From positions 7,277 through 71,276 of the IMG/VR virus record IMGVR_UViG_3300030098_004514: DNA of 64,000 nucleotides, one strand, 5' to 3'. The notes beneath the pieces are model-generated. The model did not search any database and had not been told where the DNA came from. It saw only the letters and a list, made by a program, of their open reading frames with translations. The stretch is from a virus. Of the stretch, positions 15,581 to 59,309 are shown piece by piece. Every line of letters begins with the position of its first letter. Positions within the stretch are counted from its first letter, which is position 1. Made by a program: the position numbers and the translations under genes.

Positions 15581-15961
15581 ATGGCAACTACACAAGCGAC
15601 AGTATCATATGACTATTCATTAAACACCTCTTTACAAATAGGAGACTTTTTATATTGTACGTGTGTAGTGAGCACAACTGATGGGTTTCACGTTAGCACG
15701 GCACCACCACTATTATTTGGTGAAGTAACTGAGATCACTGATACATATATAGGATTTTCATACACCTCTTTTGGTAATGGATTACCTGACTTAATACCTT
15801 GCAGCGGAGGTACTAGATTTTTATCTTTTGGAAAAGACAAAGCTGTAAATGAAACATCATTAAAGGGCTATTATAATTCAGTTGCTTTTTTAAATGATGA
15901 CAATAATAACGAAGCAGAATTGTTTATGGTTAATTCAGAAACAACGTTTAGTAGTAAATAA
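15581..15961 (+). CDS. Small conserved tail-associated protein
   Basis: 126 aa (NTSLQIGD...SLKGYY...AELF...SSK) at the end of the tail block. Confidence 0.5.
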   Translation: MATTQATVSYDYSLNTSLQIGDFLYCTCVVSTTDGFHVSTAPPLLFGEVTEITDTYIGFSYTSFGNGLPDLIPCSGGTRFLSFGKDKAVNETSLKGYYNSVAFLNDDNNNEAELFMVNSETTFSSK

Positions 15962-15983
15962 ACAGCAAAAACTGTGACTATAT
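15954..15983 (+). promoter_or_regulatory. Late/middle phage promoter (class L: GTAAA-N15-GTGAYWATAT)
   Basis: GTAAA-TAAACAGCAAAAACT-GTGACTATAT, 19 nt before the ATG at 16003. Three other sites share the same spacing. Confidence 0.7.
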
Positions 15984-20264: not shown

Positions 20265-23200
20265 ATGCTTGAAGATATATTAGATGAAAATTTAGAACAA
20301 GAAAATATTCTTGAAACCGGAACTGATGTTACTGGAGATAATTTATTGCTTGAAGAAGAAGAGACTGAAGAAAACAAGTATAAAATTAAAACAGATAAAG
20401 ATGGTAAGAAAACTGCTTTCCAATGGAAAACCGTTGCCGATATAGAAGAAGAACAATTTGGTACTAGAAATACTGATCCAGAATGGGTTAAAGAACAAGC
20501 GGCTAAAAAAAGAGAAGAAAATAAATTTGTTGTATATCATAAATTTACATCTGGAGATGATCCTGAGGTAGAACCTGAAACTAGTGATTACTCACCTTCT
20601 TTAATAAAACCAATAAAGCGAAATTTTAAAGATGGAGAGTGGAGTGTTGGTAAATACCTTGATGAAGATGATAATATTGAAAATAAAATTATAAAAGGAG
20701 AACCTTATCATTATAACGGTATAACCACTGTGGAGTATGAAGATGGTACGACACAGCATTTTAAAACAGAAGATTATCAAGCTAGAACAAAAGACACTGA
20801 AATATTGGGTGTTGAAAAAGATGATGTAACTGGAGAAGTGCTACTAAAAGGCGGTAGTGAAAAGTGGAAGGTGGGAGGAGAAACGCTTATGACGCTACCT
20901 GACGTTCAAATTACAGACATTAGAACAACAGAAAATCTTGCTAATTTGAAAAAAAGATCATACGCGCCTATAACTAAAGACGAAATAAATAATGCCGCTG
21001 AAGAGTGGGAACAAGGTTCTATTTTTACTGGCAACGAAGAAGAGTCTATTAATCAAGCAACAAAACTATTTGGAGGTTTAGGGATAACCTTTGAACCGGG
21101 CACTCATACTGGTGATAATTATATTAAAGTAAGATTACCAAATGATGAGTTATTAGATTGGTCATTAAAAGTTGGTGGAGATAAAGAACAATCAATAGAG
21201 CAATATAAAAAACTTACAGAAAATTTAACAAAAAACCACCTTCATAAACTAGAGCGTTTTAAGTATATTAATCCAACTGATTATGATAAACAGTATATAT
21301 TTAAAAATGCTAATTTAAATCTAAATGAGGTAGTTAACTATGACGAGGATAGTTACGAAGATTGGTTGAATCAATTACTACCAAATTCTCAATTTTTAGG
21401 CGAGCAAAGAGGAGCGGGTGATGCTTATAAATATGCGATACCTAATATTGGTAGCGACGGCAAAGTAAAAACAACAAACTTTGATGTAAATTTACAACCA
21501 AATATAGATATAACAGGTGATATAGCAAGAGCGGCTTTTGGTGGTGGTGAAAACACTGTTATTCAATACGGTATAGTACCAGCTCTTAAATATGCAGAGT
21601 GGAGACATGCTAATCCTCGAAGAGCTGCTGTTTATACAGATTGGACACCAAATCAGGGTAGCGATGGACCTATCTCAAGTGGCGAAACAGTTAGAGAGAT
21701 AAAAAACTTGTCTACTCTTAATAATGTATATAAAGAAGCTGTTGGGATGGAAATTTTAAGTACTGGGTCATTTCCACCTACTTATGTTGTTAAAAAAGAC
21801 GGTAAAGAAATATTTAGAGGTAGCAGTGTGTATTCTACTGCGGGTGTTGATAGTTATGTTTCAACAGACGGTGAAGTAAAAAATTATAGAAACAACATAC
21901 AAGATTTTATGACCAATTATGATTGGTCTGCTGAAGAACTTCAAGCTTTAAGTTTAGCTAGAAGTAATGCTGTAAAAAAAGTAGAGGGTAATAGAAATAA
22001 AACCAACTTTGATTTAGCATACGATAGGGAAAGTGAGTATACAAACCTAGCCGCTGCAAATAATTATACAGAAACAGAAGCCCTACCTATTCACGAAAAA
22101 GCAATAGATAACGCTGAGCAAGATTTAATAAAGGAAGGTATAGAAAAGTTTGGTATAATTGATGACGAAGGTAATATAACACAACATGGAAGCTACTCAG
22201 CTACTGGAGAACTTTTAGGTGAAAACGCTAAGAAACTTATTGAAAAACACGGTGGAAAACTAGAGTTTAGCGAAGAATTAGAAGCTTATGTATTTAGTAC
22301 TGAAACTGATGATCCAAAAGTACGTAAAGAGTTTACTGAAATGTCTAAAGCTTTAAATGGTTGGTATCACCAGTATTCACAACAACTTAATTTACATAGA
22401 GATGCTTTAACCGATATACAAGACAGAAGATTAGGCCTTCAAGATCTTTACGATGCTTCTGAAAAGAAGACGACTGCTTTGATGAGAAATTACAACCCAG
22501 GTGCTAAAATGGCTTATGGTTGGCAGAAAAGTTGGAAGCAACTTGGTTATAATATTGTTGGACTTGTTGCTCCTAGCGTTACTAAAGACGCGTCTGAAGA
22601 GTTAGATAAAAGATACCAAACAATGTTTGCGCCACAACTTACTTTTGATCGCGCTATGGAAGAAGATAGATTTTGGGAATACGCTGGTAATGTTACTACT
22701 GAAAACGGCGCTATTACAACTCTAAGTATACTTACCGCTGGGGCTGGTTCACTTTTAAACGTTGGTGCGAGAACTATACAATGGACAATTGGTGGTATTG
22801 CTGGTGTTAGTGCTGGTGGGCAAAAAAATATTGAATTAGCAAATATAGCTGATGAAATTAAAAATATAGAGGATAATTTATTACCGCAACTAGATCAACT
22901 TTTAGCAGATGAAAAAATAACTCAAGCTCAATATGACGAAAAAAGAACAGAATTAGAAAACTTTATAGATGATAATACGTATAGCGCTCTTCAAAGAACT
23001 ACTTCGGTTTTAGGTGCCACCATTTTAGAGGGTACCGTAACAGCGACAATGGGTGCTAGAAACTATACTAAATTTGGTGAAAATGTTCTTAACCCTACTA
23101 AAAACTTTGTTAAAGATCTAACTAGGGGTAATTGGAGAGCGGCTGGAAGAGCTTTAAAACAAACGGGTGGTGGTGTAGGCTTAGAAGTAGGTGAAGAAGA

Positions 23201-26200
23201 ACTTATATATTTTGGAGACGCTTTAATGGATTGGAAGATTCTTGATAGAAAATTCGACATTAGTCAATACGAAAAAGTCGGAATAGATGCTGCTATTGTA
23301 GCTGGCCCAATGGTAGGTAGTGGGGCAACGTACTCCACTGTTATGACTCAAGTTGCTAATAAAGATATTAGAAACGAAATTAACGATGTAAAAAATAATC
23401 TTTCAGATATACAAAAAAGATTTAGAAAGCTAAAACGCACTGACATAGATTACGAAAAAGAAAAGAAAATGTTGATGCGTAAAAAGCAAGAGCAATTTGA
23501 TAGATTAGGATTAAAGATCGATGAGGTGGAGCTTATGAGTATGTCTTTAGATCCTAAAGATTTAGACATGGTTCTTTCTTCTGGTTTTATACTTGATAAC
23601 TTGAATCTTCAAGCTGGTATAGACCCACGTTTTGACAATAATAAGAAGAATCAGCTTTTAAAAAAATACGTTGGAACATTAAGTAAAGACAAGGCAAAAA
23701 ACTTTATGGAAAAGTATAATAACGCTATTAACGCTAAAAAATCTGCTTTACGTAAAATGGGTGGTTTTGATCTTACCGTAAAAAGAGTTTATGGTGAGCA
23801 AGCCCAAACAATATTAGATGATTTAATAAAAACAAACCCAACATTAAAAGACGCTGATTCTAAAGAAAAAGCCTTAGCTATCCATAAAGAGTTTAAAAAA
23901 AGATTAAATGATAGTTATATAAATAAAGCTAGAGCAAATCCGTATGTTGTGGATATGGTACAAAGAAAAATTTACGGAAGTAAATACGATCCAAATAAAA
24001 AGGGGAAAATACGTTATAAAACAAAAGCAACTATTCAAGCTGAAAATGATTTATATTCTCATATAGGTAAACAAATATCTATGGATATAGATAAAGCTAT
24101 TGTTATATCCAAAGAAGAAGGTAGATTGGCTTCAGAAGTACTTAGAGATATTAGATTAAAAGACCTTAATTTAACAGTGGCTCCAGATGATGGTGTATTA
24201 CAAGAAGAGGTTATGCAAGCTTATGATGACATGGCTCAACAAGATATTGATAGATTAAAAAAGAAAAATATTTCTAAAGAAGAAATGGAATCATTGTCGG
24301 GAATAATTAAAGCTAGACGTGATGCTGAAGCTCAACAACATATTGATGCTCTTAGAAACAACGAATTAAACGCTATAATTGTTGGTGGTAAATATATAGT
24401 TAAAGATAAAAAAGCTGCTGATAAAGCTCTTGAGCAAGGATATTTATTAGCTGGTACCGCTATATCACATGAAGTTGGTCATGCTATAGATTACTTAGCG
24501 TTTGATGAAGCTGGTGTTACAAATTACGGAAAAAATCTTCATAATTACATGGAGAAAAACTTTCCTGAAATACATGCTGAAGCGCAAAGAATTCAAGCTG
24601 TAATTGGTAACTTTGACGCTACAAACGGTGAAATGCCTAGAGGAGAAAATAAATATTATGATGAATACAGTAAAGAAGTTCAGAGTCAATTTATATTGAA
24701 TAAAAAAGATAAGAACAAACTATACAAATTGTCTTCTAACGTAAAGGGTTCTTTTGGCGCTATGATTGATAGATTTACAGAAAAAGGTGAGGGTTTTAGA
24801 ATAGACAATGATAGAGACGCTGCTATGTATCTATCTAGTTTTTTAAAAGGATTTGAGAATGGTGAAATAGGTAAACTACAAAAAAGAAGAATAGATTATA
24901 GAAAAAGACGTGGTATAAAAAGAGAAGATACGGAAACTAAGAAGTCGTCTAACTTACAAACTATGTTAGATACAGATTATGATGGTAATGTTAGAAAAAT
25001 GGGTAGAGATGCTATCTCTGTTGATCCTCAAGGTAAAAAACTAGAAGGTAAACAAGCTTTTGATTTAATGAATTCTAAATTAGGTCAAGATATAGGACCT
25101 ATGGTTACCGATATAACAAAAAAGTTATATGATCCTATAATTGATAAAGGTGAGTTAACCAGGCAAGAATATCAAAATGCTTTAATAGGTATAGCTTCAG
25201 AAATAATTAGAACTGAAAATTTTGATCCAACAAAACAAGATTTAGACAAATTTGTTAGTAGTAGATTATATTTTAGAGCTAATGCTTTGGCTAAACAATT
25301 AGGCGTGCCGCAAGAGTTTTTAAAAGATATAGATAATATAACTGATCCAACGGTAGATCCAGACGAAGATATAGATATAGCATTGGATGAAGAAGCTAGA
25401 ATATTAAATGATTTTGATATAGCTCTTGAAGATGGTTTAGTTGATGCTGAAATTACTGCTGAAGTAGAATCTTTAATAGAACAAAATCCAGTTGATTTAG
25501 AAAAACGTATGGAAAAACTTATACTAGGTGATATACGTAAAAAACTTGACAACGCTATTGGTAAAATTGCTAAAAATAAAGAAACTGGAATTGTTGAACC
25601 AACAGCAGAGTATGAGACATTTATTAGAGATGAATTTAACGAAATAATAAGTAGTTTAGATATAAAAACAATAAGAACATCTTACAAACCATTTTTTAAA
25701 CAAGAAAAAACAGGTAGAAAAGATTATAAAAACATAGATCCTGTAACTGGTAAGGTTAGTAATTATAGAAAAGATACTTTTATAAACACCGCTAGTAAAC
25801 CAGATTTTATAAAATATTTTACACAAGGTAAACCAAATGTTTTAAGAGAAAGAAGAACAGGTTTAATAAGGCGTATATCTAAAAGAAAAGCTGATATAGC
25901 TATAGATAACTATATAGAAAGAAATTCTAATAACATTGATGCGGTAGTAAAAGCAAAACTTAGATCAATAAGTAGAACTGCTGAAAATATACAAGACGAA
26001 CAAACAAGTTTTGACTCTGTAAAATACAGCACACAAGTAGAGACTCGTATTAATGATTACATGAAAGATGAGGTGGATGGTAAACGAAGGTTTGCTAATA
26101 GAGGACAAGCCTTAGAGCAAGTTATAATAGACATGCTTAGTGAGTATGGTTTCCCTGTTGAAAGATTAAAATTAAGAGTAAGCACTCAAACAGAACAAGG

Positions 26201-29200
26201 TGGATTAGCTGATATAAATCTAGAGGTATTTGGAGAGCCTTTTAACATAGAGGTTAAACTAGATGAAAAAGTACCTATGGGTAGTGTTCTGGTTTCTAAT
26301 TATGATTTAAATTACCGTAATTTTACTTTAGCAAAAAGCGCTATTAGATTACCTTTTAGAGATATGTTAGACATGGTTCACGATGATATAGTTAACCTTA
26401 AAAACGTATACAACGAAAAAGTAGAAGCTTACAATAAGAAGAATGGTACTAACGAACCATTAATGTCTGACAATCCTATTGGTCATCGTATGGTTGAATC
26501 TATATACAACGAATTAGTTAAGGAAAAAGTAACAGGTGCGATTTTTAGTAATAGTACATTTACTAGTCCCAACGCGCAACCTTTAATCGATCATTACCAA
26601 GGTAAAACTAACGTTGTTGGCAAGGGTAAAAATAAAAAAACTATATCAGCGCCAGTTGATGCTATAGAAATATTCGGCATGGGACTATATTCTTTTGTTC
26701 CAAACTCTCCTCTTGGTACAAACGCCCCTTATATATTAAACATGGCTAGAGTGCAAACAGGTATAAGGGTAATGAACTCTGGTAGAATAAAAAGCAAGGG
26801 CAAAGTGGTTACTAACAAAGCTGGCGATGGGTATATAAGATTTAGTTTACAGTTTCAAAATACATTAACTGATCTTAAGGCTCCAAAAAATCCTATTAGT
26901 CTTACTAGACAGCAAGATATGACACCTATTTTTGGCGCACCAGTAAAACAAAATCTAATGCCAGAAGTTACTTTAGCGTCTAAAAACGCTAGAACAACTA
27001 AAAAATATCATATCAATCCAAGAGGTATGAGTACTTTTGATTTTGATGAAACGTTGATTATAGAAGGTAAAAACTTTATAGTTGCTAAAGACCCGATCAC
27101 TGGTGAAGAAACAAAGATAAGTAGTGGTAATTGGCCTTTAGAAGGACCTAAACTAGCAGAGCAGGGTTATACTTTTGATTTTAATGATTTTGTAAACGTA
27201 AGAGGTGGTGTTGATGGACCATTATTACAAAAAATGAAAAACCAAATAAGTAAGTTTGGACCTGAAAACGTTTTTGTTTTAACAGCAAGACCACAGGCTA
27301 GCGCGCCAGCAATTCACGGTTGGTTAGATTCTAAAGGCATTAATATACCTTTTAAAAATATAACTGGTTTAGCTAATAGTACTGGAGACGCTAAAGCTGA
27401 ATGGATGTTACAAAAGTTTGCCGAAGGATATAACGATATGTATTTTGTTGACGATGCTTTACCTAATGTTGAAGCCGTTAAAAGTGCTTTAGAACAATTA
27501 GATATTAAATCTGATGTGCAACAAGCTAGAGTTAAATTTAGCAAACAATTAGATCCTACTTTTAACAAGATACTTGAAGAAGTTGTGGGTATTGATGCTG
27601 ATAAAAGATTTTCTGCTATAAAAGCTAGAAAACGTGGTGAAAAGAAAGGTAGGTTTAGATTTTTTGTACCACCATCACACGAGGATTTTGGAGGTTTATT
27701 GTACAACTTTTTGGGTAAAGGTAAAAAAGGTAATGAACATAGAGCTTTTTTTGAAGAAGCTTTAATAAGACCATTAAATAGGGGTTATAGAGAGTTAGAT
27801 ATAGCTAGACAGTCTATAGCTAATGATTATAAAGCTTTAAATAAAAACTTTCCAGAAATTAAAAATATCTTAAATGAAAAAATACCGGGTAGTGATTTTA
27901 CAAATCAAGATGCTATAAGAATATATTTATGGAATAAACACGGTTATAACATTCCTGGGCTAAGTAAGGTTGATCAAAAGAAACTAACTGAACATGTCAA
28001 GTCAGATGAAGAAATGCAATCTTATGCCGAGACATTAAACACAATATCAAAGCAAGAAACATATGTAAATCCTACTGAAGGATGGGATAGTGGAGATATA
28101 AGAATGGATTTAGATGATGCTACTGGAAGAGTTGGTAGAGCTGAGTTTTTTAGTGAGTTTACTGAAAACGCAGAAGAAATATTTTCTGAACAAAATTTAA
28201 ATAAGATTGAAGCAGGTTATGGTAAAGACGTTAGAAGTGCTTTAGAAGATATGCTGTATAGGATTGGTACTGGTAAAAATAGACCAAAAGGACAAAGCGC
28301 AACAGTAAATAGATTTATGAACTTTTTAAATGGTTCTGTTGGGTCTGTTATGTTTTTAAACATGAGATCTGCTTTGTTACAGCAAATGTCTATTGTAAAT
28401 TATATAAACTTTGCCGATAATAATATATTTGCAGCTGCTAAAGCTTTTGCAAATCAAAAGCAATATTGGACTGACTGGGCGTATATATTTAACTCTGACA
28501 TGCTAAAACAAAGACGTGGCGGAATTAAAACAGATGTTAATGGTGCTGAGCTTGCTGAAACTATTAGTAAATCAAGGTTTCCAATGAGAAGCTTAGTGAG
28601 AGAATTGCTGCAACTCGGATTTAAACCTACACAAATTGGTGATAGTATAGCGATCGCAACTGGTGGCGCGACATATTATAGAAATAGAATTAATAGATAT
28701 CAAAAACAAGGACTAAGTAGAAAGGATGCTACGGAAAAAGCTTGGAATGATTTTCAAGATACTACTCAATCCACCCAACAGTCATCTAGACCTGACATGG
28801 TATCTCAACAACAAAGCTCTTGGAAAGGTAAAATAATATTAAACTTCCAAAATATTACATCACAATATAATAGATTTGGTAAAAAAGCAATGAGTGACAT
28901 TTATAATAGAAGAATATCACCTCCTTACACAACACAACTACAAAGTGACATTGGTAATGCTTCTAAAATAGCTTTTTATTTTGGAATACAAAATATGATT
29001 TTTTACAGTTTACAAACAGCGTTGTTTGCCATGATGTTTGAAGACGATGAAAACGAAGAAAGATGGTTGAAGAAAAAAGAAAGAGTTATCAATGGTAGTA
29101 TTGATTCGATATTACGTGGAAGTGGAATAGGTGGAGCTGTTTTGTCTACTTTAAAAAATATGGCTATTAAATTTGCTGAGCAAAGAGGGAAAGGTTATAA

Positions 29201-29915
29201 TCCAGATGAAAGTGCTGTATTAATGGAAATGTTAAACTTTTCACCAGTAGTTGGTATTAAAGCTAGAAAAATAACAAACGCTGAAAAAACATTATTTTAT
29301 AATAAAAATGTTATAAAAGAAATGGACACCTTTGATATTGACAATCCTATGTGGTCTGCTTATACAAACTATATAGAGGCTGGAACAAATTTACCTCTTA
29401 ATAGATTATATAACAAAACACAAAATGTAAGACAAGCTTTAAATAACGAGCATGAGGCGTGGAAAAGGGTTATGATGTCGTTTGGATGGAGTCAATATAA
29501 TCTAGGTATTCAAGATGATACTATTAAGGAAGTAAAAGAAACTATAAAGCGAAAGAAAAAGATACAAAAAGACAAAGAAAGAGAGCAAAAAAAAGAGGCT
29601 AAAATAAAAGAAAAATATCCTAATCTTAATAAAAAAGAAATACAAGTTAAATTAAAAAGTAAGGAAATGTTTAGTTTAAGTAAAGGAGAGCAATATTTTA
29701 TATTAAAACAACTAGGTCTTTCTGAAACACAAATTCTTAATCTTAAAAAAGAACAAAACAGAGCTGATAAAATAGCTGAGTTATATGAAAAAAATCAAAA
29801 GTTGATTGATGATTTTATGAAAAATCCAAAATCTATGGAAATAAAAAAACAAAAAGGATTTGGTGATGGTAAATATAAAAGAAAAACATATACTAGAAAA
29901 TCATATACTAGATAG
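20265..29915 (+). CDS. Giant polyvalent virion (ejected) protein with zincin, sigma-region-2-like, PD-(D/E)XK and HAD domains
   Basis: 3216 aa. HEVGH at 24468-24482, sigma-2-like segment at about 25070-25310, AD...IEVK at 26208-26258, and HAD motifs FDFDETL, LTAR, K and FVDD at about 27030-27455. Confidence 0.7.
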   Translation: MLEDILDENLEQENILETGTDVTGDNLLLEEEETEENKYKIKTDKDGKKTAFQWKTVADIEEEQFGTRNTDPEWVKEQAAKKREENKFVVYHKFTSGDDPEVEPETSDYSPSLIKPIKRNFKDGEWSVGKYLDEDDNIENKIIKGEPYHYNGITTVEYEDGTTQHFKTEDYQARTKDTEILGVEKDDVTGEVLLKGGSEKWKVGGETLMTLPDVQITDIRTTENLANLKKRSYAPITKDEINNAAEEWEQGSIFTGNEEESINQATKLFGGLGITFEPGTHTGDNYIKVRLPNDELLDWSLKVGGDKEQSIEQYKKLTENLTKNHLHKLERFKYINPTDYDKQYIFKNANLNLNEVVNYDEDSYEDWLNQLLPNSQFLGEQRGAGDAYKYAIPNIGSDGKVKTTNFDVNLQPNIDITGDIARAAFGGGENTVIQYGIVPALKYAEWRHANPRRAAVYTDWTPNQGSDGPISSGETVREIKNLSTLNNVYKEAVGMEILSTGSFPPTYVVKKDGKEIFRGSSVYSTAGVDSYVSTDGEVKNYRNNIQDFMTNYDWSAEELQALSLARSNAVKKVEGNRNKTNFDLAYDRESEYTNLAAANNYTETEALPIHEKAIDNAEQDLIKEGIEKFGIIDDEGNITQHGSYSATGELLGENAKKLIEKHGGKLEFSEELEAYVFSTETDDPKVRKEFTEMSKALNGWYHQYSQQLNLHRDALTDIQDRRLGLQDLYDASEKKTTALMRNYNPGAKMAYGWQKSWKQLGYNIVGLVAPSVTKDASEELDKRYQTMFAPQLTFDRAMEEDRFWEYAGNVTTENGAITTLSILTAGAGSLLNVGARTIQWTIGGIAGVSAGGQKNIELANIADEIKNIEDNLLPQLDQLLADEKITQAQYDEKRTELENFIDDNTYSALQRTTSVLGATILEGTVTATMGARNYTKFGENVLNPTKNFVKDLTRGNWRAAGRALKQTGGGVGLEVGEEELIYFGDALMDWKILDRKFDISQYEKVGIDAAIVAGPMVGSGATYSTVMTQVANKDIRNEINDVKNNLSDIQKRFRKLKRTDIDYEKEKKMLMRKKQEQFDRLGLKIDEVELMSMSLDPKDLDMVLSSGFILDNLNLQAGIDPRFDNNKKNQLLKKYVGTLSKDKAKNFMEKYNNAINAKKSALRKMGGFDLTVKRVYGEQAQTILDDLIKTNPTLKDADSKEKALAIHKEFKKRLNDSYINKARANPYVVDMVQRKIYGSKYDPNKKGKIRYKTKATIQAENDLYSHIGKQISMDIDKAIVISKEEGRLASEVLRDIRLKDLNLTVAPDDGVLQEEVMQAYDDMAQQDIDRLKKKNISKEEMESLSGIIKARRDAEAQQHIDALRNNELNAIIVGGKYIVKDKKAADKALEQGYLLAGTAISHEVGHAIDYLAFDEAGVTNYGKNLHNYMEKNFPEIHAEAQRIQAVIGNFDATNGEMPRGENKYYDEYSKEVQSQFILNKKDKNKLYKLSSNVKGSFGAMIDRFTEKGEGFRIDNDRDAAMYLSSFLKGFENGEIGKLQKRRIDYRKRRGIKREDTETKKSSNLQTMLDTDYDGNVRKMGRDAISVDPQGKKLEGKQAFDLMNSKLGQDIGPMVTDITKKLYDPIIDKGELTRQEYQNALIGIASEIIRTENFDPTKQDLDKFVSSRLYFRANALAKQLGVPQEFLKDIDNITDPTVDPDEDIDIALDEEARILNDFDIALEDGLVDAEITAEVESLIEQNPVDLEKRMEKLILGDIRKKLDNAIGKIAKNKETGIVEPTAEYETFIRDEFNEIISSLDIKTIRTSYKPFFKQEKTGRKDYKNIDPVTGKVSNYRKDTFINTASKPDFIKYFTQGKPNVLRERRTGLIRRISKRKADIAIDNYIERNSNNIDAVVKAKLRSISRTAENIQDEQTSFDSVKYSTQVETRINDYMKDEVDGKRRFANRGQALEQVIIDMLSEYGFPVERLKLRVSTQTEQGGLADINLEVFGEPFNIEVKLDEKVPMGSVLVSNYDLNYRNFTLAKSAIRLPFRDMLDMVHDDIVNLKNVYNEKVEAYNKKNGTNEPLMSDNPIGHRMVESIYNELVKEKVTGAIFSNSTFTSPNAQPLIDHYQGKTNVVGKGKNKKTISAPVDAIEIFGMGLYSFVPNSPLGTNAPYILNMARVQTGIRVMNSGRIKSKGKVVTNKAGDGYIRFSLQFQNTLTDLKAPKNPISLTRQQDMTPIFGAPVKQNLMPEVTLASKNARTTKKYHINPRGMSTFDFDETLIIEGKNFIVAKDPITGEETKISSGNWPLEGPKLAEQGYTFDFNDFVNVRGGVDGPLLQKMKNQISKFGPENVFVLTARPQASAPAIHGWLDSKGINIPFKNITGLANSTGDAKAEWMLQKFAEGYNDMYFVDDALPNVEAVKSALEQLDIKSDVQQARVKFSKQLDPTFNKILEEVVGIDADKRFSAIKARKRGEKKGRFRFFVPPSHEDFGGLLYNFLGKGKKGNEHRAFFEEALIRPLNRGYRELDIARQSIANDYKALNKNFPEIKNILNEKIPGSDFTNQDAIRIYLWNKHGYNIPGLSKVDQKKLTEHVKSDEEMQSYAETLNTISKQETYVNPTEGWDSGDIRMDLDDATGRVGRAEFFSEFTENAEEIFSEQNLNKIEAGYGKDVRSALEDMLYRIGTGKNRPKGQSATVNRFMNFLNGSVGSVMFLNMRSALLQQMSIVNYINFADNNIFAAAKAFANQKQYWTDWAYIFNSDMLKQRRGGIKTDVNGAELAETISKSRFPMRSLVRELLQLGFKPTQIGDSIAIATGGATYYRNRINRYQKQGLSRKDATEKAWNDFQDTTQSTQQSSRPDMVSQQQSSWKGKIILNFQNITSQYNRFGKKAMSDIYNRRISPPYTTQLQSDIGNASKIAFYFGIQNMIFYSLQTALFAMMFEDDENEERWLKKKERVINGSIDSILRGSGIGGAVLSTLKNMAIKFAEQRGKGYNPDESAVLMEMLNFSPVVGIKARKITNAEKTLFYNKNVIKEMDTFDIDNPMWSAYTNYIEAGTNLPLNRLYNKTQNVRQALNNEHEAWKRVMMSFGWSQYNLGIQDDTIKEVKETIKRKKKIQKDKEREQKKEAKIKEKYPNLNKKEIQVKLKSKEMFSLSKGEQYFILKQLGLSETQILNLKKEQNRADKIAELYEKNQKLIDDFMKNPKSMEIKKQKGFGDGKYKRKTYTRKSYTR

Positions 29916-51729: not shown

Positions 51730-52491
51730 TTACAGAAAATCAATCACTTGCGAGTGGTCTACGTTCTCTATTAATTTACTTACTGCTTGCTTTTTTAACT
51801 GTGAAACCCTTACATAGGCTCCGCTTCCTTCTATATCTAAATATTCTGCTATTTGTTTTGCTGAATGCTTGTCACAATCCAATCCATAACTTAATCTTAA
51901 CACGTGAAACTCTTTATTTGTTAAGTGTTGTTTTAGTAAAGATGTAAGATACATATTTAAAAATTGAATATTATATGGCTCTGATTTATCTTCTATTTGT
52001 AAAAATATATCATCATCCTCTCTAGTACCAGCATCAATACTTAAAAATATAGAATTAAAGAACATTGCTACAGCTTTTTTATCTTTACCAAAGTTTTTAC
52101 GTATCTCGTTTGTTACGTGTTCTGGTAATCTCATTTGTCCTCTGTTTGTGTCAATAGCTCTTCTTATTCCACCCTTAATTCTTTTAGATAAAAACGATTT
52201 CATAGTTTTCTCTTGATCTTCCGATTCCTGTAATTTATCCCAATCAATACGATCAACAGCTTTAATTAAGTTTAAATTACCTTCTTGTATTATATCCAAT
52301 ATACTCATGCACCCACTAGCTTGTTGTGATGTCGCAAACTTTCTAGCTATATTTTCTACAAGTGGCATAAATAATAATATTAACTCATTTCTATTATAAT
52401 CTTTATAATCATAAGCTTGTTTTAATCTTTTATAAGATTGTTCTAAATCGTTTTTATATCTTATATAATTCTGTATATTATAATGTTTCAT
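51730..52491 (-). CDS. Phage-encoded sigma-70-family factor
   Basis: Region 2 LVENIARKF...DIIQEGNLNLIKAVDR, region 3 MRLPEH and LSID, region 4 VLRLSYGL...QIAEYL...VRVSQLKKQAV. Confidence 0.9.
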   Translation of the reverse strand: MKHYNIQNYIRYKNDLEQSYKRLKQAYDYKDYNRNELILLFMPLVENIARKFATSQQASGCMSILDIIQEGNLNLIKAVDRIDWDKLQESEDQEKTMKSFLSKRIKGGIRRAIDTNRGQMRLPEHVTNEIRKNFGKDKKAVAMFFNSIFLSIDAGTREDDDIFLQIEDKSEPYNIQFLNMYLTSLLKQHLTNKEFHVLRLSYGLDCDKHSAKQIAEYLDIEGSGAYVRVSQLKKQAVSKLIENVDHSQVIDFL

Positions 52492-54740: not shown

Positions 54741-55084
54741 CTATTTCCTTTTTTTAATATTTTATTTACTTCGTCCATTCGTTGTTTAATAATAGCACAT
54801 TTTTCATATGCTTCATCTTCTTTAAACAGGTTCATTAATGTCATAAGCTTTGCTGCTTCACCTAATGCATTTTCTTCTTCGGTTAATTCAAGATCTTGGT
54901 AAGCCGTTGACCAAGCTATGTCAGACTTGGACACGTGGTGAAACCAATCTTCCATAGATTTTAATTTTACCATACGACTTACGATCTTGATTGCCAACCT
55001 GTTAAGACCTTCATCACCTACTTTAAGATCATTAATTTTGTCTAATATTTGTTTATTTGTTACACGTTTATTATCTTTACTCAT
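54737..55084 (-). CDS. Hypothetical protein with a UVR-like C-terminal helix pair
   Basis: EDEAYEKCAIIKQRM. Confidence 0.5.
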   Translation of the reverse strand: MSKDNKRVTNKQILDKINDLKVGDEGLNRLAIKIVSRMVKLKSMEDWFHHVSKSDIAWSTAYQDLELTEEENALGEAAKLMTLMNLFKEDEAYEKCAIIKQRMDEVNKILKKGNR

Positions 55085-55100
55085 TCGTATTTATTTTGTA
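55069..55100 (-). promoter_or_regulatory. Early promoter (class E), slightly degenerate copy
   Basis: TACAA-N5-ATACGA-N9-GATAATA, overlapping a gene junction. Confidence 0.5.
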
Positions 55101-55433
55101 TTTATCTAATAATTTTTGCGGTTCACCTACAAAGATACATTCAAAGTCAAGGCCGTTACCCATACCTTCGAATATACTTATCCATGTCGTTTTTAACGGT
55201 GCTTGCCATATATAATATATATACTCTAAATCACCGTGTCTTGTATCTAAATGTTCTACTTCCCATCCTGATAATTTTGTGGAATCTAATAATGACTCGG
55301 CTATCTCTACGCCTAATCCCTCTGGATAGCCATCACTGTGGTTATAGAACTGCGCGTGTATAGCATTTGGATGCTCATTAAAGCTCACGCCAACTTCTCT
55401 TGTTGCAAATCTAATCTGTGCTCTTGTGCTCAT
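55077..55433 (-). CDS. Conserved phage early protein (HxDGYP family)
   Basis: MSTRAQI...YNHSDGYPEGLG...EYIY. Confidence 0.6.
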   Translation of the reverse strand: MSTRAQIRFATREVGVSFNEHPNAIHAQFYNHSDGYPEGLGVEIAESLLDSTKLSGWEVEHLDTRHGDLEYIYYIWQAPLKTTWISIFEGMGNGLDFECIFVGEPQKLLDKYKINTNE

Positions 55434-55701
55434 AATATCTTTCTTTTAATTGTTCAATAATTGCTCTACCTGTTGCCGTATGAAAACCATAGCTATGTGT
55501 GAATAAACCTTTAATTGGGTCATTAAAGAATAATAATCTCATATAATCTAGTGGGTCAGCTGCTTTTGCAAAATGATTACCGTAATTATCTTCAGCCATA
55601 TCATTACAAGCAGCAGCAATAGCTTTAGGGCAGTGAGTAAACTCATCTGGTGTTCTATAAGACATATAGTCTTGTACTTTTTTACTTGTTAGTTTTTTCA
55701 T
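55411..55701 (-). CDS. Hypothetical early protein
   Basis: 96-aa ORF tightly packed in the operon. Confidence 0.55.
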   Translation of the reverse strand: MKKLTSKKVQDYMSYRTPDEFTHCPKAIAAACNDMAEDNYGNHFAKAADPLDYMRLLFFNDPIKGLFTHSYGFHTATGRAIIEQLKERYYEHKSTD

Positions 55702-55702
55702 A

Positions 55703-56089
55703 TTATTCTTTATTTAATTGGTCAGCAGTTGGTTCGTCTTCAGGGCAATCAGCTTCTTTAAATAGTTTACATACATTATTTACTATTTGTTCTGTTAATT
55801 CATAAGCAGCTTGTAAACCAACACTTTCACAATATACTTTACCATCATACTCCATACCATACTCAAACTCATAGTTATCTGTATTACTAAAGTCAAAATC
55901 TTCAACAGCTTTTTCTACAGCATCATGAATCTCATCCATCATCATTGGTGTAATTTCTGGTTTGTTGTAATCTTCTAACTCTTGTTTAGTTGCTTTTAAC
56001 TTGCTTTCATAATTAGTAGCAAAGTCTTGATGCTCTTTGATTGCTTTTTCTAGACCTTCAATCTTGGTCTTTAAATCCATTTCATTCAT
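55703..56089 (-). CDS. Hypothetical acidic coiled-coil early protein
   Basis: 128-aa ORF directly downstream of a class E promoter. Confidence 0.6.
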   Translation of the reverse strand: MNEMDLKTKIEGLEKAIKEHQDFATNYESKLKATKQELEDYNKPEITPMMMDEIHDAVEKAVEDFDFSNTDNYEFEYGMEYDGKVYCESVGLQAAYELTEQIVNNVCKLFKEADCPEDEPTADQLNKE

Positions 56090-56104
56090 ATTATTTAATT
56101 TTAT

Positions 56105-56138
56105 TATATTATCTTACTTTATTCGTATTTAGTTTGTA
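56105..56138 (-). promoter_or_regulatory. Early promoter (class E: TACAA-N5-ATACGA-N9-GATAATATA)
   Basis: Exact consensus 15 nt before the ATG at 56089. Confidence 0.75.
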
Positions 56139-56142
56139 ATAA

Positions 56143-56272
56143 AACGAGGTCGGGCAGGTGTGGTTTCAACTTTATCCTGCCGTTCTGCCAAGTGAGTAAG
56201 ATGCGGCTCAAGAATTAACCTGATCTTTGTACTTCCGCTACACGTCTCACGCGCTACCACCCTCACCTCGTT
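56143..56272 (-). ncRNA. Candidate structured ncRNA (about 130 nt)
   Basis: GC-rich intergenic block with nested helices AACGAGGT/ACCTCGTT, GTGGT/ACCAC, GTGAG/CTCAC and GCGG/CCGC. Confidence 0.45.
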
Positions 56273-56375
56273 ATAATAACTTACCTATTCCAATTCCTAT
56301 TATCAATCCAGCTATTCCTATGTAAGCTACTATTAAAAACAATAGCGAATCTTTATTTTGTCTATCTTTATTCAT
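56271..56375 (-). CDS. 34-aa single-TM peptide (not in ORF track)
   Basis: MNKDRQNKDSLLFLIVAYIGIAGLIIGIGIGKLL*. Confidence 0.45.
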   Translation of the reverse strand: MNKDRQNKDSLLFLIVAYIGIAGLIIGIGIGKLL

Positions 56376-56565
56376 ACCAAACACCATATACTTTAACACC
56401 TTTCGGTTCACACATTAATACTTTTTTCTTTATTGGTTTTTCGTTTAATTGACTTTTGTCCATGTATTTTGGATTTTTGCTGTTTAGTTTTCTCTTTTTT
56501 GTCATATTCTTCTATATTTCTAATTAATTTTTCATTTTGTCCTAATCTTTTTCTAAATAATCTCA

Positions 56566-57087
56566 TCATATTACTTTATATCTTTGTCCATCTATTATTA
56601 CTTGTACGCTTTGTGTTTTTTCAGGAAATATTACATCAGCAATACTATTTCTTGTTTTAATTTCATTTTCATACTTCCATTTAGGTACAAACTTACCACT
56701 TGATAGCATATTAGCGTAACCTATGTAATAGTTTTTGAGACAAAAGCTTATTAAGTATTCTAGTCTGTCTTGCTCGTTAGGTATTAGTTTACAACCACGA
56801 GTAGTATATTCTCTGTATGTACCATCTTCAAATGGACCATAGAATCTTGTTTCACTTTCAATCCTTTTGTTTAGTTGCCAACTCGGGCAATATCCACCTG
56901 CTTTAGTACGTCTAACATAACCACTAGCAAAACTCGCGACGTGTATAGCATTACCGTACTGACATTTTACTGGCAACTTAAATTCACGTGTACCATTTTT
57001 CTTTTGTCTTTTAGTTGTAACCTCTTGAATATCAAGGAATTGCAACATCCTTTCTATTTCTACAAAATTGTTAAATTGTTTCTTCAT
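56566..57087 (-). CDS. Hypothetical early protein
   Basis: 173-aa ORF in the early operon. Confidence 0.6.
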   Translation of the reverse strand: MKKQFNNFVEIERMLQFLDIQEVTTKRQKKNGTREFKLPVKCQYGNAIHVASFASGYVRRTKAGGYCPSWQLNKRIESETRFYGPFEDGTYREYTTRGCKLIPNEQDRLEYLISFCLKNYYIGYANMLSSGKFVPKWKYENEIKTRNSIADVIFPEKTQSVQVIIDGQRYKVI

Positions 57088-57093
57088 ATTATA

Positions 57094-57306
57094 TTATTTT
57101 AATAGTGTTCCATAACCTCGGCGTTGAGTCAACCTAGATATACGTGCAGCGTCACTGCTTGACATAATCTGTATGGAATTACCGGTTTTGTGGTTGATTA
57201 GTGGTGCGCAACCGTATTGCTCGGTCGTGGAGCAGTCAACGCACACTTTGTAACCTAAGTCGGCTCTGCCTTGAGGTATTATATTGTTACATTTACACTG
57301 CAACAT
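57094..57306 (-). CDS. DksA/TraR-like C4 zinc-finger protein
   Basis: CKC..IPQGRADLGYKVCVDC resembles the C4 finger Cx(1-2)C..IP..R......CxxC. Start placed at MLQCKC. Confidence 0.55.
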   Translation of the reverse strand: MLQCKCNNIIPQGRADLGYKVCVDCSTTEQYGCAPLINHKTGNSIQIMSSSDAARISRLTQRRGYGTLLK

Positions 57307-57484
57307 AAGTAAATCCTTTATAATTAAACCAAGTGGTAATGTGAGAAAAACCATCTTTATCTACTTCACCGAACTTAGTATCTGCTAATTGACAGATAGT
57401 ATATGGTTTATAAGTTATACCATTTAATTGAATTTTTTGTTTACCAGTAGTTATATCTGGCTTTAAGAATTTGATTGTGTTCAT
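57293..57484 (-). CDS. Hypothetical early protein
   Basis: 63-aa ORF directly downstream of a class E promoter. Confidence 0.55.
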   Translation of the reverse strand: MNTIKFLKPDITTGKQKIQLNGITYKPYTICQLADTKFGEVDKDGFSHITTWFNYKGFTYVAV

Positions 57485-57503
57485 GTTATATATTTTATTT
57501 AAT

Positions 57504-57537
57504 TATATTATCAATTACTTTTCGTATTTGTTTTGTA
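57504..57537 (-). promoter_or_regulatory. Early promoter (class E)
   Basis: Exact consensus 19 nt before the ATG at 57484. Confidence 0.75.
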
Positions 57538-57538
57538 T

Positions 57539-57706
57539 TTATCTTTCTTTATGATATTCTATTATTAAAGAATCTCTTTTATAAGTATATTCTAAATATA
57601 ATTTATCTATTTTGTATTCTAATTCTTTTTCTTTTTCTGTTAATGGAGCAAATGTTCCACATGAAGTGATTAAAAACGCACCTAAAATTACTATTATTTT
57701 ATTCAT
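57539..57706 (-). CDS. 55-aa putative lipoprotein (not in ORF track)
   Basis: MNKIIVILGAFLITSC carries a lipobox-like signal. Confidence 0.5.
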   Translation of the reverse strand: MNKIIVILGAFLITSCGTFAPLTEKEKELEYKIDKLYLEYTYKRDSLIIEYHKER

Positions 57707-57773
57707 ATTTCTTCTCTCATTAAATAGCTACCTACCATAGCCGTTATTAATATTAATATTATCCACTCTCCCA

Positions 57774-58034
57774 TTAGTCTAATCCGTCTCTATTATTCTT
57801 TAAAATACCTGATTCTTGGTCGCGCTTATGTGCTTCGTGTATAGCATTCGCGAGTAGTTCTTGCGAGTTAACCGAGTTAAACCAATCTTCTTTTTCCCAT
57901 ACATAGTATATCCATTTCCAAGCTTCGTGAGCAGTTTCAAACCAATTTTGATATTCATTTCCATAACTATCAGTTACTTCGGTGTTATACCATTCACCTT
58001 CTTTTCTTGTTATTTTATAATTTCTTTTACTCAT
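57774..58034 (-). CDS. Hypothetical early protein
   Basis: 86-aa Trp-rich ORF. Confidence 0.55.
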   Translation of the reverse strand: MSKRNYKITRKEGEWYNTEVTDSYGNEYQNWFETAHEAWKWIYYVWEKEDWFNSVNSQELLANAIHEAHKRDQESGILKNNRDGLD

Positions 58035-58036
58035 AA

Positions 58037-58303
58037 TTAATCTATTTCATCACAGTTTTCACAGTCTACTGCTTGTAATTTATCTACTCTTTCTATTATT
58101 TCATATAAATTATCTATATAAGTGTCAGCGTAAGTACTATCTACATGACCATTTGCTACATCTTCTACTATCCACTCAATCATATCATATGCGGTGTTTT
58201 CAATTTCATTTAACTCAAATTGGTCATTTACTTTGTTTGTAGTAAATGCAGATAGTATTGCTACTCCACCTATTACTAATATATTTCTTGTTATTTTCTT
58301 CAT
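58037..58303 (-). CDS. Hypothetical exported or membrane-anchored early protein
   Basis: Signal-like N-terminus MKKITRNILVIGGVAILSAFT and a C-terminal CENC. Confidence 0.55.
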   Translation of the reverse strand: MKKITRNILVIGGVAILSAFTTNKVNDQFELNEIENTAYDMIEWIVEDVANGHVDSTYADTYIDNLYEIIERVDKLQAVDCENCDEID

Positions 58304-58440
58304 AATTTAATATTTAGTTATTCCATTTTTACTTATTAATTTGTTTAAGAATTTGTCCATTTCTTGTTGAATTCTTTTTTTTCTTTGATATTCTTTCCAG
58401 TGTTCTAATGCTTCGTACATATTTATTTATTTTTTACATT

Positions 58441-58474
58441 TATATTATCAAATACTTATCGTATTTTGTTTGTA
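58441..58474 (-). promoter_or_regulatory. Early promoter (class E)
   Basis: Exact consensus upstream of a 37-aa ORF (58307-58420). Confidence 0.75.
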
Positions 58475-58581
58475 TTATTCTTTTTCTTCTGGTATTAATG
58501 CTACTAATAATTTTAGTATTCCGAGTGTTAACCATATTGCTATTATTGTTGACATATTCATATTTTTACTTATTAATATTT

Positions 58582-58624
58582 GTTGTAGTGTGAGAATCGA
58601 ACTCACAAAAACCATTACTACAGT
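58582..58624 (-). ncRNA. tRNA-like minihelix (acceptor-like stem plus T-arm, no anticodon arm)
   Basis: TGTAGT-AATGGTTTTT-GTGAG-TTCGATT-CTCAC-ACTACA on the minus strand. Confidence 0.45.
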
Positions 58625-58694
58625 GTACTCATTCATTTTTTTTACGAGGAAACAAGTGGAACTAACTCGACTTCGGGCGTGTATAGCAAAATTA

Positions 58695-58940
58695 TTATTT
58701 TACTATTGTTTGTAAGTCGCGACAGAAACTTGGTACACAATTTGAATTAGTGTATGACTTATATTTCTGAAAACAATTCATACTTTCAAATCTTTCTTTG
58801 TGAGTATTGTATACTTCATCATGATTATAAGAAACATTTTCTTGTTTTTTGTTTACAAAAGTTATAATTGTATTTTTACCAATTAGACTTTTTCTGATTA
58901 CAAATCTTTTAGTTGTTAATGTGTTAGTTAAATTTGACAT
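58695..58940 (-). CDS. Hypothetical early protein
   Basis: 81-aa ORF (KRFVIRKSLIGKN...YKSYTNS) downstream of a class E promoter. Confidence 0.6.
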   Translation of the reverse strand: MSNLTNTLTTKRFVIRKSLIGKNTIITFVNKKQENVSYNHDEVYNTHKERFESMNCFQKYKSYTNSNCVPSFCRDLQTIVK

Positions 58941-58986
58941 AGTTAATTTATTTTAGTTATTAATTTAATTTAGTTTATTTGTTTAT

Positions 58987-59020
58987 TATATTATCTTTAT
59001 TAGTTCGTTTTTAGTTTGTA
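58987..59020 (-). promoter_or_regulatory. Early promoter (class E)
   Basis: TACAA-N5-AAACGA-N9-GATAATATA, one mismatch from consensus. Confidence 0.7.
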
Positions 59021-59148
59021 AAAGTACGTAATTTGTTTATTTGATATTTTTACATTACTAGTACTACTCGACTTCTCAATGTTTACAATTGTAATTTAAT
59101 TTGCATTTGTGAATTGTTATTACTGTTATTGTTGTTTCTTTTTACATA

Positions 59149-59182
59149 TATATTATCAATATGTAGTCGTATTAGCTTTGTA
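59149..59182 (-). promoter_or_regulatory. Early promoter (class E)
   Basis: Exact consensus, with no sizeable ORF in the following 110 nt. Confidence 0.7.
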
Positions 59183-59183
59183 A

Positions 59184-59282: not shown

Positions 59283-59309
59283 GTTGTATTGTTTAAGTTA
59301 TTATCTACA

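What the first reader, a model, noticed from the sequence alone, without database searches (positions are those of the whole stretch)
25070..25310. Sigma-factor region-2-like domain embedded in the giant ejected virion protein: a possible injected-sigma transcription cascade
Seen: inside the 3216-aa protein, LGQDIGPMVTDITKKLYD...ELTRQEYQNALIGIASEIIRTENFDPTKQDLDKFVSSRLYFRANALAKQL follows the layout of sigma-70 region 2 (xVxxIAxxY...L..xDL.Q....L...xEKFDPxKG.xFxTYA...I), and an acidic linker follows it. No virion RNA polymerase motif is evident, yet seven early promoters do not match the Bacteroidota housekeeping promoter. Established: crAss-like phages inject a giant RNAP for early transcription, and Bacteroidota primary sigma reads TTTG/TAnnTTTG. 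Inference: this phage may instead inject a sigma-like domain, possibly released by the adjacent zincin, that redirects host core RNAP to class E promoters. These would then express the free sigma (51730-52491), which reads class L promoters. Both classes share a GA(T/C)(A/T)ATAT -10-like element.
Basis: partly seen in the sequence, partly recalled or inferred. Interest (0 to 1): 0.85.

Follow-up and report, generated by a model that had tools for sequence, protein, structure and literature searches.

The report
Sigma-2-like fold in injected phage protein
A small three-helix domain inside a giant phage protein is predicted to fold like the core-binding domain of bacterial sigma factors, but it is a swappable module and probably not what reads the phage's unusual early promoters.

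Summary
The segment is real. It is residues 1605-1678 of the 3216-aa ORF 20265-29915, followed by an acidic linker. By sequence it is not sigma-like beyond chance. Pfam gave no Sigma70_r2 hit. hhalign against a sigma region-2 alignment scored 11.2, versus 11.0 for the reversed control. By predicted fold it is sigma-like. The AF2 model has core pLDDT above 90. An all-against-48,161-chain structural scan put sigma-factor domain 2 in all ten top rows, at Z 6.5-7.3. Foldseek's best PDB hit is the SigE N-terminal domain, but at E about 1. The injected-sigma cascade is not supported. The module is one of several mutually unrecognisable cassettes at the same slot behind a zincin motif. The 33-bp early promoter TACAAR-N4-AWACGA-N9-GATAATAT is kept in phages that carry other cassettes. 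No sigma-4 partner and no RNA polymerase were found. My best reading is a fast-evolving binding module of a polyvalent, probably virion-delivered protein. What reads the early promoters remains open.

The parts
20265..29915 (+). Giant 3216-aa ORF (P0001), a polyvalent-type protein at the end of the virion-gene block
   Evidence: 92 other giant relatives in marine metagenomes. Upstream ORFs match virion-structural PHROGs. The C-terminal 711 aa lie nearest to LPD38/LPD39-bearing clusters, which is a lead only.
24468..24482 (+). Zincin-type HEVGH (HExxH) motif, residues 1402-1406
   Evidence: An HExxH lies 138-282 aa upstream of the module in 78 of 80 long module-bearing proteins.
24957..25376 (+). 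Conserved type A module as covered by the family HMM, residues 1565-1704
   Evidence: The HMM built from 25 segments finds it in 108 of 181 stored proteins. Alignment A1 of 60 diverse members has R1671 invariant.
25077..25298 (+). Three-helix core with a sigma-domain-2-like predicted fold: H1 25077-25130, H2 25161-25214, H3 25242-25298
   Evidence: AF2 model with core pLDDT above 90 and pTM 0.66. The top 10 VIA-align rows are all sigma domain 2, at Z 6.5-7.3. The top Foldseek hit is the SigE N-terminal domain at E 0.97. Coordinates.
25332..25484 (+). Acidic linker, residues 1690-1740
   Evidence: 19 D/E against 1 K/R in 51 residues.
25398..26084 (+). Conserved downstream block, residues 1712-1940, shared by all slot types; fold not recognised
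   Evidence: AF2 model with pLDDT 74. Foldseek TM about 0.1. Best VIA Z is 4.3, on a mixed list.
26199..26264 (+). PD-(D/E)xK-nuclease-like motif (GGxAD...ExK)
   Evidence: Seen in the sequence and in 12 of 25 aligned relatives. Motif level only.
27036..27056 (+). HAD-phosphatase-like DxDxT motif, residues 2258-2264
   Evidence: D, F, D, T and L are nearly invariant in A3. Motif level only.
27462..29594 (+). C-terminal family core, residues 2400-3110
   Evidence: Covered by 129-139 of 168 relatives. Nearest named Atlas clusters carry LPD39, LPD38 or DUF5763.
51730..52491 (-). Free phage sigma factor, 253 aa
   Evidence: Sigma70_r2 and Sigma70_r4. phrog_351. It is the only six-frame Sigma70_r2 match in the genome. 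67% identical in the distant relative G031.
55068..59343 (-). Seven class E promoters, TACAAR-N4-AWACGA-N9-GATAATAT, at 55068-55100, 56106-56138, 57505-57537, 58442-58474, 58988-59020, 59150-59182 and 59311-59343
   Evidence: 6 exact, 1 with one mismatch, backwards control 0.
15954..15983 (+). Class L promoter, GTAAA-N15-GTGAYWATAT. Others lie at 29915-29944(+), 51691-51720(-) and 59748-59777(+)
   Evidence: 4 sites against 0.09 expected.

Best explanation
Residues 1605-1678 form a small three-helix binding module. It is one cassette (type A) among several interchangeable, fast-evolving helical cassettes. All occupy a fixed slot about 140-280 residues behind the zincin HExxH motif of a giant phage-type polyvalent protein. 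The protein is probably packed in the virion and delivered with the DNA.

The fold resembles sigma-factor domain 2. The module lacks the sequence signature of that family and has no detected region-4 partner, and it does not set the specificity for the class E early promoters. Its most conserved face is the basic third helix (F1663, R1667, R1671). An acidic linker follows, and then a conserved block of unknown fold.

Inferred mechanism: after delivery the zincin cuts or exposes the central region, and the module binds a host or phage macromolecule through helix 3. The class E promoters are read by something better conserved than this module. Candidates are the phage's own sigma or an unidentified factor.

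Shown here: the anatomy, the conservation pattern, the predicted fold, the cassette variation and the promoter conservation. Inferred: packaging, cleavage and binding.
For: The module is discrete and conserved. It is in 25 of 93 proteins by phmmer and 108 of 181 by HMM. Conservation is concentrated at the end of H1 and the loop after it, and in H3, with R88 of the model invariant.

It is tied to the zincin in 78 of 80 long proteins. Other family members carry different helical segments at the same slot. hhalign between types gives A-B 2.9%, A-C 0.8%, A-D 3.1% and B-D 98.7%.

P0016 has a type B slot, yet its downstream block is 72% identical to the window's. The type A protein P0007 is 69% identical there. 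So cassettes are swapped on a similar backbone.

The class E promoter occurs with 0-1 mismatches in G003 (type B slot, 5 sites), G009 (type C, 2 sites), G018 (type A, 2 sites) and G031 (untyped slot, 7 sites, block only 26% identical). Variants occur in G008 and G027.

There is no sigma sequence signal. The polyvalent-protein context rests on the zincin, the LPD38/39 lead and passages of PMC5512222.
Against: The fold match to sigma domain 2 is specific. All ten top rows of 48,161 chains are sigma domain 2. About 29 of the 50 rows name a sigma factor or an RNA polymerase complex. The neighbouring block, run the same way, gave only a mixed list at Z<=4.3. Z of about 7 over about 70 residues is roughly what distant true sigma-2 domains would give. 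That estimate is recalled, not tested.

The phage has non-host-like early promoters and no detected RNA polymerase, so a polymerase-directed role would fit. Only type A was folded, so the other cassettes could share the fold. Most related contigs are fragments, so promoter absence in 23 of 30 says nothing. Relatedness confounds the promoter/cassette comparison.
Confidence: 0.45

Rival explanations
1. The module is a genuine, highly diverged sigma-domain-2 derivative. After injection it docks on host RNA polymerase core at the sigma-2 site. There it either competes with the host primary sigma, causing host shut-off, or tethers the polyvalent protein to the polymerase. It does not itself specify class E promoters.
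For: Sigma domain 2 fills the top of three structural searches: VIA rows 1-10 at Z 6.5-7.3, the top Foldseek PDB hit SigE N-terminal domain at probability 0.93, and eight rows naming a sigma factor or RNA polymerase subunit among the top 50 of BFVD. The protein is of a type delivered at the start of infection (passages of PMC5512222). hhalign's best local alignments of types A, B, C and D to sigma all fall in the expected order of regions 2.1-2.3.
Against: All those hhalign alignments are insignificant, with E 0.04-0.24 against reversed controls at 0.17-0.49. Helix 2, which would be the core-binding helix, is the least conserved part of the module. The slot is hypervariable although polymerase core is conserved. 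Z stays under the tool's caution level of 8.
Confidence: 0.25
2. The injected sigma-like domain, released by the zincin, directs host core polymerase to class E promoters. These express the free sigma, which then reads class L.
For: The sigma-2-like fold. Seven conserved early promoters that are not host-like. No T7-type or beta-prime-type polymerase by Pfam six-frame search. The sigma gene lies downstream of the class E sites on the same strand.
Against: The class E promoter, including an invariant GATAATAT, is kept in phages with non-homologous slot cassettes. A promoter-reading domain should be conserved together with its promoter. The free sigma is far better conserved: 67% identity in G031, against 26% for the giant protein's block. 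Both promoter classes share the -10-like element, which points to one conserved reader. No region 4 was found to read the conserved upstream half of class E.
Confidence: 0.07
3. The module is a helical spacer or an accessory part of the zincin unit, with no separate target. The likeness to sigma-2 is a coincidence between small three-helix arrangements.
For: Z is below 8, and the tool warns that such values are common for helical models. No Foldseek hit reaches E<=1e-3 in PDB or BFVD. There is no sequence signal. The distance to HExxH is fixed.
Against: Ten of ten top rows belong to one family out of 48,161 chains, which is not what a generic bundle gives. The control block gave a mixed list. 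Invariant and near-invariant surface-type residues (R, E, Q) indicate a constrained function.
Confidence: 0.2

Closest known systems
Sigma-70 family domain 2 (Pfam Sigma70_r2, PF04542)
   Same: Predicted three-helix geometry. The model superposes on E. coli sigma-70 residues 377-446 (Z 7.2, rmsd 2.5 over 69 residues), on SigB, pro-sigmaK, sigma-28, SigE and others.
   Different: No HMM or profile-profile signal. The second helix is variable. No region 4 was found. The module is embedded in a 3216-aa protein, not a free 20-70 kDa factor.
T4 gp55, a minimal late sigma made of a sigma-2-like domain only (role recalled; the structure row is from the tool)
   Same: A phage protein with a sigma-2-like fold and no region 4. 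The T4 gp45-dependent activation complex 7d7d_F appears at Z 6.0.
   Different: gp55 is a free protein made during infection and reads a short -10-type element. Here the promoter has two long conserved halves, and the module varies while the promoter does not.
Phage-type polyvalent proteins with zincin metallopeptidase hubs (Iyer et al. 2017, PMC5512222; passages read)
   Same: A giant multidomain protein with an HExxH zincin and unrelated modules (HAD-like, nuclease-like). The LPD38/39-like C-terminus is a lead. Processing by the zincin is proposed there.
   Different: The word 'sigma' does not occur in that paper's main text, so a sigma-2-like module is not among its described domains. Its supplements could not be seen.
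Virion RNA polymerases: N4 gp50 and the crAss-like phage polymerase (the latter recalled)
   Same: A giant protein at the end of the virion block in a phage whose early promoters are not host-like. N4 gp50 is also fused to a zincin.
   Different: No T7-type Pfam match, no DxDGD-type motif and no PDB sequence match. Only about 350 of 3216 residues were folded, so a cryptic polymerase is not excluded.

Membership tests
Sigma-70 family, domain 2 (PF04542) | Match to the family HMM at or above the gathering score | tested here: not met
   No hit at E<=1 for P0001 or for the 400-aa piece. Not among the 25 families shown, of 32, for 60 members at E<=10. Not among the 16 families for 15 variant-slot segments. 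The six-frame genome search finds only the free sigma.
Sigma-70 family, domain 2 (PF04542) | Three-helix sigma-2 fold (regions 2.1 to 2.4) | tested here: met
   AF2 model with core pLDDT above 90. VIA rows 1-10 are all sigma domain 2, at Z 6.5-7.3 and rmsd 2.2-2.9 over 66-74 residues. Caveats: this is a predicted model, Z is below 8, and Foldseek E is about 1.
Sigma-70 family, domain 2 (PF04542) | Conserved core-binding helix 2.2 and the aromatic/basic -10-reading residues of regions 2.3-2.4 (features recalled) | tested here: not met
   In A1, helix 2 has only its first residue 90% or more conserved. Helix 3 keeps one aromatic (F80) and two arginines, and the Y-F pair of this window is N-L in the family consensus. 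hhalign against sigma region 2 gives 0.25%. No residue-level superposition was available.
Sigma-70 family (whole factor) | A region-4 helix-turn-helix domain in the same protein | tested here: inconclusive
   No Sigma70_r4 Pfam match in P0001 at E<=1. The 229-aa block after the linker has no recognisable fold. The rest of the protein was not folded.
Sigma-70 family (whole factor) | Binds RNA polymerase core and directs promoter-specific initiation | not testable with these tools
   Needs biochemistry. The indirect comparative test argues against promoter specificity.
Phage-type polyvalent proteins (Iyer et al. 2017) | Giant multidomain protein with a zincin-like HExxH metallopeptidase hub | tested here: met
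   HEVGH at residue 1402. HExxH is present in 91 of 92 family members, 68 of 68 plus 23 of 24. This is motif level only, because the zincin fold itself was not modelled.
Phage-type polyvalent proteins (Iyer et al. 2017) | Carries LPD-type associated domains | tested here: inconclusive
   The ESM Atlas feature search places the C-terminal 711 aa nearest to clusters with LPD39 (28% of members), LPD38 (63%) and DUF5763 (11%). No Pfam hit on P0001 itself.
Phage-type polyvalent proteins (Iyer et al. 2017) | Packaged in the virion and delivered with the DNA | not testable with these tools
   Inferred only from the gene's position after virion-structural genes.

The most novel reading that the evidence does not exclude
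A domain derived from sigma-factor domain 2 is carried inside the virion as part of a polyvalent protein. It engages host RNA polymerase core at the first moment of infection, as a sigma, a sigma competitor or a tether. This would be the first injected sigma-like factor. Its cassette-like variation would reflect an arms race at the polymerase.
Probability: 0.2. Interest if true: 0.85.

Novelty: new variant of a known kind. Interest (0 to 1): 0.5.

Why it matters
This phage lineage is very abundant in marine metagenomes. The sigma search hit its 8000-candidate ceiling, and the 120 best hits are 86-100% identical. It has no recognisable RNA polymerase.

Its seven early promoters form a 33-bp, two-part consensus unlike the Bacteroidota housekeeping promoter. 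That consensus is kept almost letter for letter in relatives whose giant-protein block is only 26% identical.

Something conserved must read these promoters when infection starts. A sigma-2-like fold in a delivered protein makes one candidate directly testable. The comparative result here suggests looking instead at the free sigma, which may itself be packaged, or at the conserved parts of the giant protein.

The finding also adds a domain type to polyvalent proteins that the founding survey does not mention in its main text.

Tried and rejected
Sequence routes that found nothing sigma-like:
- Pfam on the protein, on 60 type A members and on 15 variant-slot segments.
- PHROGs on P0001, which gave only two weak families of unknown function.
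- phmmer and the A1 profile against PDB sequences.
- hhalign of types A-D against a 15-sequence sigma region-2 alignment, with reversed controls.
- A sigma HMM against 178 slot sequences. Real sequences averaged -4.0 bits (maximum 3.6), reversed -4.75 (maximum 2.0), shuffled -5.4 (maximum 5.9).

By eye I read several variant cassettes as sigma-like in layout. The statistics do not back this, so I dropped it as evidence.

The search of 1.84 billion representatives gave 92 hits, mostly giant proteins and fragments. That library has no names. The A1 profile against short proteins of 55-231 aa gave 5 hits, none with a Pfam sigma domain. So no free small form is known.

tblastn and megablast of the giant gene against 50,697 phage records gave no match. 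BLASTP against the giant protein of Maribacter phage Panino gave nothing.

Polymerase hunts were negative: PF00940 and PF00623 six-frame searches and motif regexes. The PF00940 control rang in none of the 14 control genomes, so that negative is weak.

The complex prediction of the module with beta-prime residues 235-345 of RPOC_FLAJ1 returned 'no answer' with score 0.00. This is no evidence either way.

No sigma-like row appeared in the structural searches of the downstream block.

Literature searches found no report of an injected sigma-like domain. Searches were read as listings only. For PMC7824862 and PMC5512222 I read the passages returned by 'find'. Supplements were not seen.
Full report
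WHAT IS THERE.

The window is bases 7277-71276 of a 71,276-base viral record. The + strand carries a virion-gene block. The first 7.2 kb of the genome hold ORFs that look like terminase and portal. ORFs in the window match PHROGs annotated as virion structural proteins. The 492-aa capsid-region protein is 40-45% identical to proteins of Flavobacterium, Cellulophaga and Maribacter phages, in 85 records. A Flavobacteriia host is therefore likely but not shown.

ORF 20265-29915 encodes 3216 aa. The peptides quoted in the finding lie at residues 1606-1679. The stated coordinates are one base out of frame. A zincin HEVGH motif is at residue 1402. An acidic stretch follows the segment, with 19 D/E against 1 K/R in residues 1690-1740.

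IS IT SIGMA-LIKE BY SEQUENCE? No.

- Pfam finds no Sigma70_r2 at E<=1 in the protein or in a 400-aa piece around the segment. The free sigma at 51730-52491(-) is found in the same call.
- A six-frame search of the whole genome with PF04542 finds only that free sigma.
- I collected relatives. There are 93 giant proteins (1.9-3.5 thousand aa) matching residues 1540-1900, and 92 hits to residues 1540-1760 among 1.84 billion representatives.
- The segment is a discrete module. phmmer finds it in 25 of 93 proteins. A family HMM finds it in 108 of 181 stored proteins.
- An alignment of 60 diverse members (A1) found nothing among PDB sequences at E<=10. None of the 25 Pfam families listed, of 32, for its members is a sigma family.
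- hhalign of A1 against a region-2 alignment gave probability 0.25% and score 11.2. That alignment was built from 14 sigma loci of one bacterial genome plus the phage's own sigma. The same sigma alignment reversed gave 11.0.

IS IT SIGMA-LIKE BY FOLD? Yes, as far as a prediction can show.

- AlphaFold2 on A1 gives three helices, at residues 1605-1622, 1633-1650 and 1660-1678. Core pLDDT is above 90 and pTM is 0.66.
- Foldseek against the PDB has no hit at E<=0.001. Its first hit is the 'SigE N-terminal domain' (E 0.97, probability 0.93, rmsd 2.7 over 72 columns). BldN and SigI1 also appear.
- VIA-align compares the model with every one of 48,161 representative chains without using Foldseek. 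It puts sigma domain 2 in all ten top rows: SigB, pro-sigmaK, E. coli sigma-70 377-446, M. tuberculosis SigA domain 2, sigma-28, SigE, a Caulobacter initiation complex, WhiG, SigK, and Taq sigma-A domain 2 bound to -10 DNA. These have Z 6.5-7.3 and rmsd 2.2-2.9 over 66-74 residues.
- About 29 of the 50 rows name a sigma factor or an RNA polymerase complex.
- In BFVD, eight rows naming a sigma factor or RNA polymerase subunit are among the top 50, again at weak E-values.
- The tool warns that Z below 8 can reflect a common helical arrangement.
- Against that, the neighbouring 229-aa block run the same way gave a mixed list with best Z 4.3. The method does not favour sigma by default.

THE MODULE IS A CASSETTE.

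- In 78 of 80 long module-bearing proteins an HExxH lies 138-282 residues upstream.
- Family members that 'lack' the module have the same spacing, but carry other helical segments there. I grouped them as types B, C, D and further singletons.
- hhalign does not relate type A to B, C or D (2.9%, 0.8%, 3.1%), whereas B and D are related (98.7%).
- P0016 has a type B slot, yet its downstream block is 72% identical to the window's. Type A protein P0007 is 69% identical there. Cassettes are therefore exchanged on similar backbones.
- Within type A, conservation sits at the end of helix 1, in the loop after it, and in helix 3 (F80, R84, invariant R88, A93, G97 in model numbering). Helix 2 is variable. 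In a sigma factor, helix 2 would carry the core-binding surface; that point is recalled knowledge.

THE PROMOTERS.

- Class E is TACAAR-N4-AWACGA-N9-GATAATAT. The genome has six exact sites and one with a single mismatch, all on the minus strand between window 55068 and 59343. The backwards control has none.
- Class L is GTAAA-N15-GTGAYWATAT, with four sites against 0.09 expected.
- Bacteroidota-type TTTG..TAnnTTTG is at chance level. Intergenic TAnnTTTG is rare.

A COMPARATIVE TEST OF THE CASCADE.

- I fetched 30 IMG/VR contigs that encode the conserved block.
- I then scanned the whole records for class E with up to 3 mismatches. Seven of 30 records have matches. One of these, G021, has a single 3-mismatch site and is doubtful. 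The other 23 are mostly fragments of 24-57 kb, so their absence is uninformative.
- G003 (type B): 5 sites with 0-1 mismatches.
- G009 (type C): 2 sites.
- G018 (type A): 2 sites.
- G008 (untyped): 3 sites.
- G027 (untyped): 4 variant sites.
- G031 (untyped, complete at 68 kb, block only 26% identical): 7 sites.
- GATAATAT is unchanged in nearly all of these sites.
- So the promoter is conserved while the slot cassette is replaced by sequences with no detectable homology. A domain that read this promoter should be conserved with it.
- By contrast, the free sigma is 67% identical between the window's genome and G031. Both promoter classes share the -10-like element.
- This test is confounded by relatedness and rests on few records. 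It lowers the injected-sigma reading but does not exclude it.

WHAT ELSE IS IN THE PROTEIN.

- After the acidic linker comes a block (residues 1712-1940) conserved in all slot types. Its model has pLDDT 74 and no recognisable fold. No region-3 or region-4 likeness was seen.
- Further on lie a GGxAD...ExK motif, a DxDxT motif and a 700-aa C-terminal family core.
- The nearest Pfam-bearing Atlas clusters to that core carry LPD39, LPD38 or DUF5763 (a lead only).
- This matches the phage-type polyvalent proteins of Iyer et al. 2017. In the passages I read, zincin peptidases are the hub and are proposed to process the protein. The N4 virion polymerase is always fused to one. The word 'sigma' does not occur in that paper's main text.
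- No polymerase was detected. Only about 350 of the 3216 residues were folded, so a cryptic one remains possible.

VERDICT.

The domain, linker, zincin, promoters and free sigma are real. The sequence likeness to region 2 is at chance level. The fold likeness to sigma domain 2 is specific but modest.

A sigma-2-like fold is carried in a probably delivered protein.

My probabilities are:
- 0.45 for a fast-evolving binding cassette of a polyvalent protein, with no role in promoter specificity.
- 0.25 for a diverged sigma-2 that docks on polymerase core without setting specificity.
- 0.20 for a helical spacer with a coincidental fold match.
- 0.07 for the full cascade.

What reads the conserved early promoter at the start of infection is the real open question here.

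Noticed in passing
window 55068-59343 (-); also G003, G008, G009, G018, G027, G031 (loci L019, L024, L025, L034, L043, L047): The 33-bp class E promoter is kept almost letter for letter in phage contigs whose giant-protein block is only 26-57% identical. Its reader is unknown, and no host-like promoter precedes the early genes.
   Followed up: partly
window 15954-15983(+), 29915-29944(+), 51691-51720(-), 59748-59777(+): A second promoter class, GTAAA-N15-GTGAYWATAT, has 4 sites against 0.09 expected. One site starts at the last base of the giant ORF and one lies just downstream of the sigma gene.
   Followed up: partly
window 26199-26264 and 27036-27056 (+): The giant protein holds a PD-(D/E)xK-nuclease-like motif (GGxAD...ExK, in 12 of 25 aligned relatives) and a HAD-like DxDxT motif that is nearly invariant in the family. 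Neither was modelled.
   Followed up: no
window 43880-44638(-) and 44611-45747(-): Two overlapping ORFs match consecutive halves of one ribonucleotide reductase family, phrog_367 (profile 29-448 and 449-697). This is a split gene, a frameshift or programmed recoding.
   Followed up: no
window 51730-52491 (-): The free sigma has an insertion between regions 2.2 and 2.3 and lacks the aromatic run seen in the bacterial group-1 sigma of L004. Its relatives are extremely numerous: 8000 candidates all at E<=1e-3, with the best 120 at 86-100% identity.
   Followed up: partly
window 60503-62071 (+): A phage-encoded GroEL-type chaperonin (phrog_5725, 1.4e-135). The related Maribacter phage Panino has a GroES-like gene annotated next to its terminase (L002).
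   Followed up: no
L003 (contig of 2635 bases in a genome-collection MAG): A 65%-identical copy of the phage sigma sits on a short contig binned into an actinobacterial MAG. This is most likely phage DNA mis-binned, not a host signal.
   Followed up: no
window 6358-13731 (+) and 37073-42433 (+): There are two more giant ORFs. The 2457-aa one matches the virion-structural phrog_14478. The 1786-aa proline- and tryptophan-rich one has internally repeated segments and looks like a fibre or receptor-binding protein.
   Followed up: no
P0016 against P0007 (alignment A3): A protein with a type B slot is as close to the window's downstream block (72% identity) as a type A protein (69%). Slot cassettes are therefore exchanged by recombination rather than drifting apart.
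   Followed up: partly
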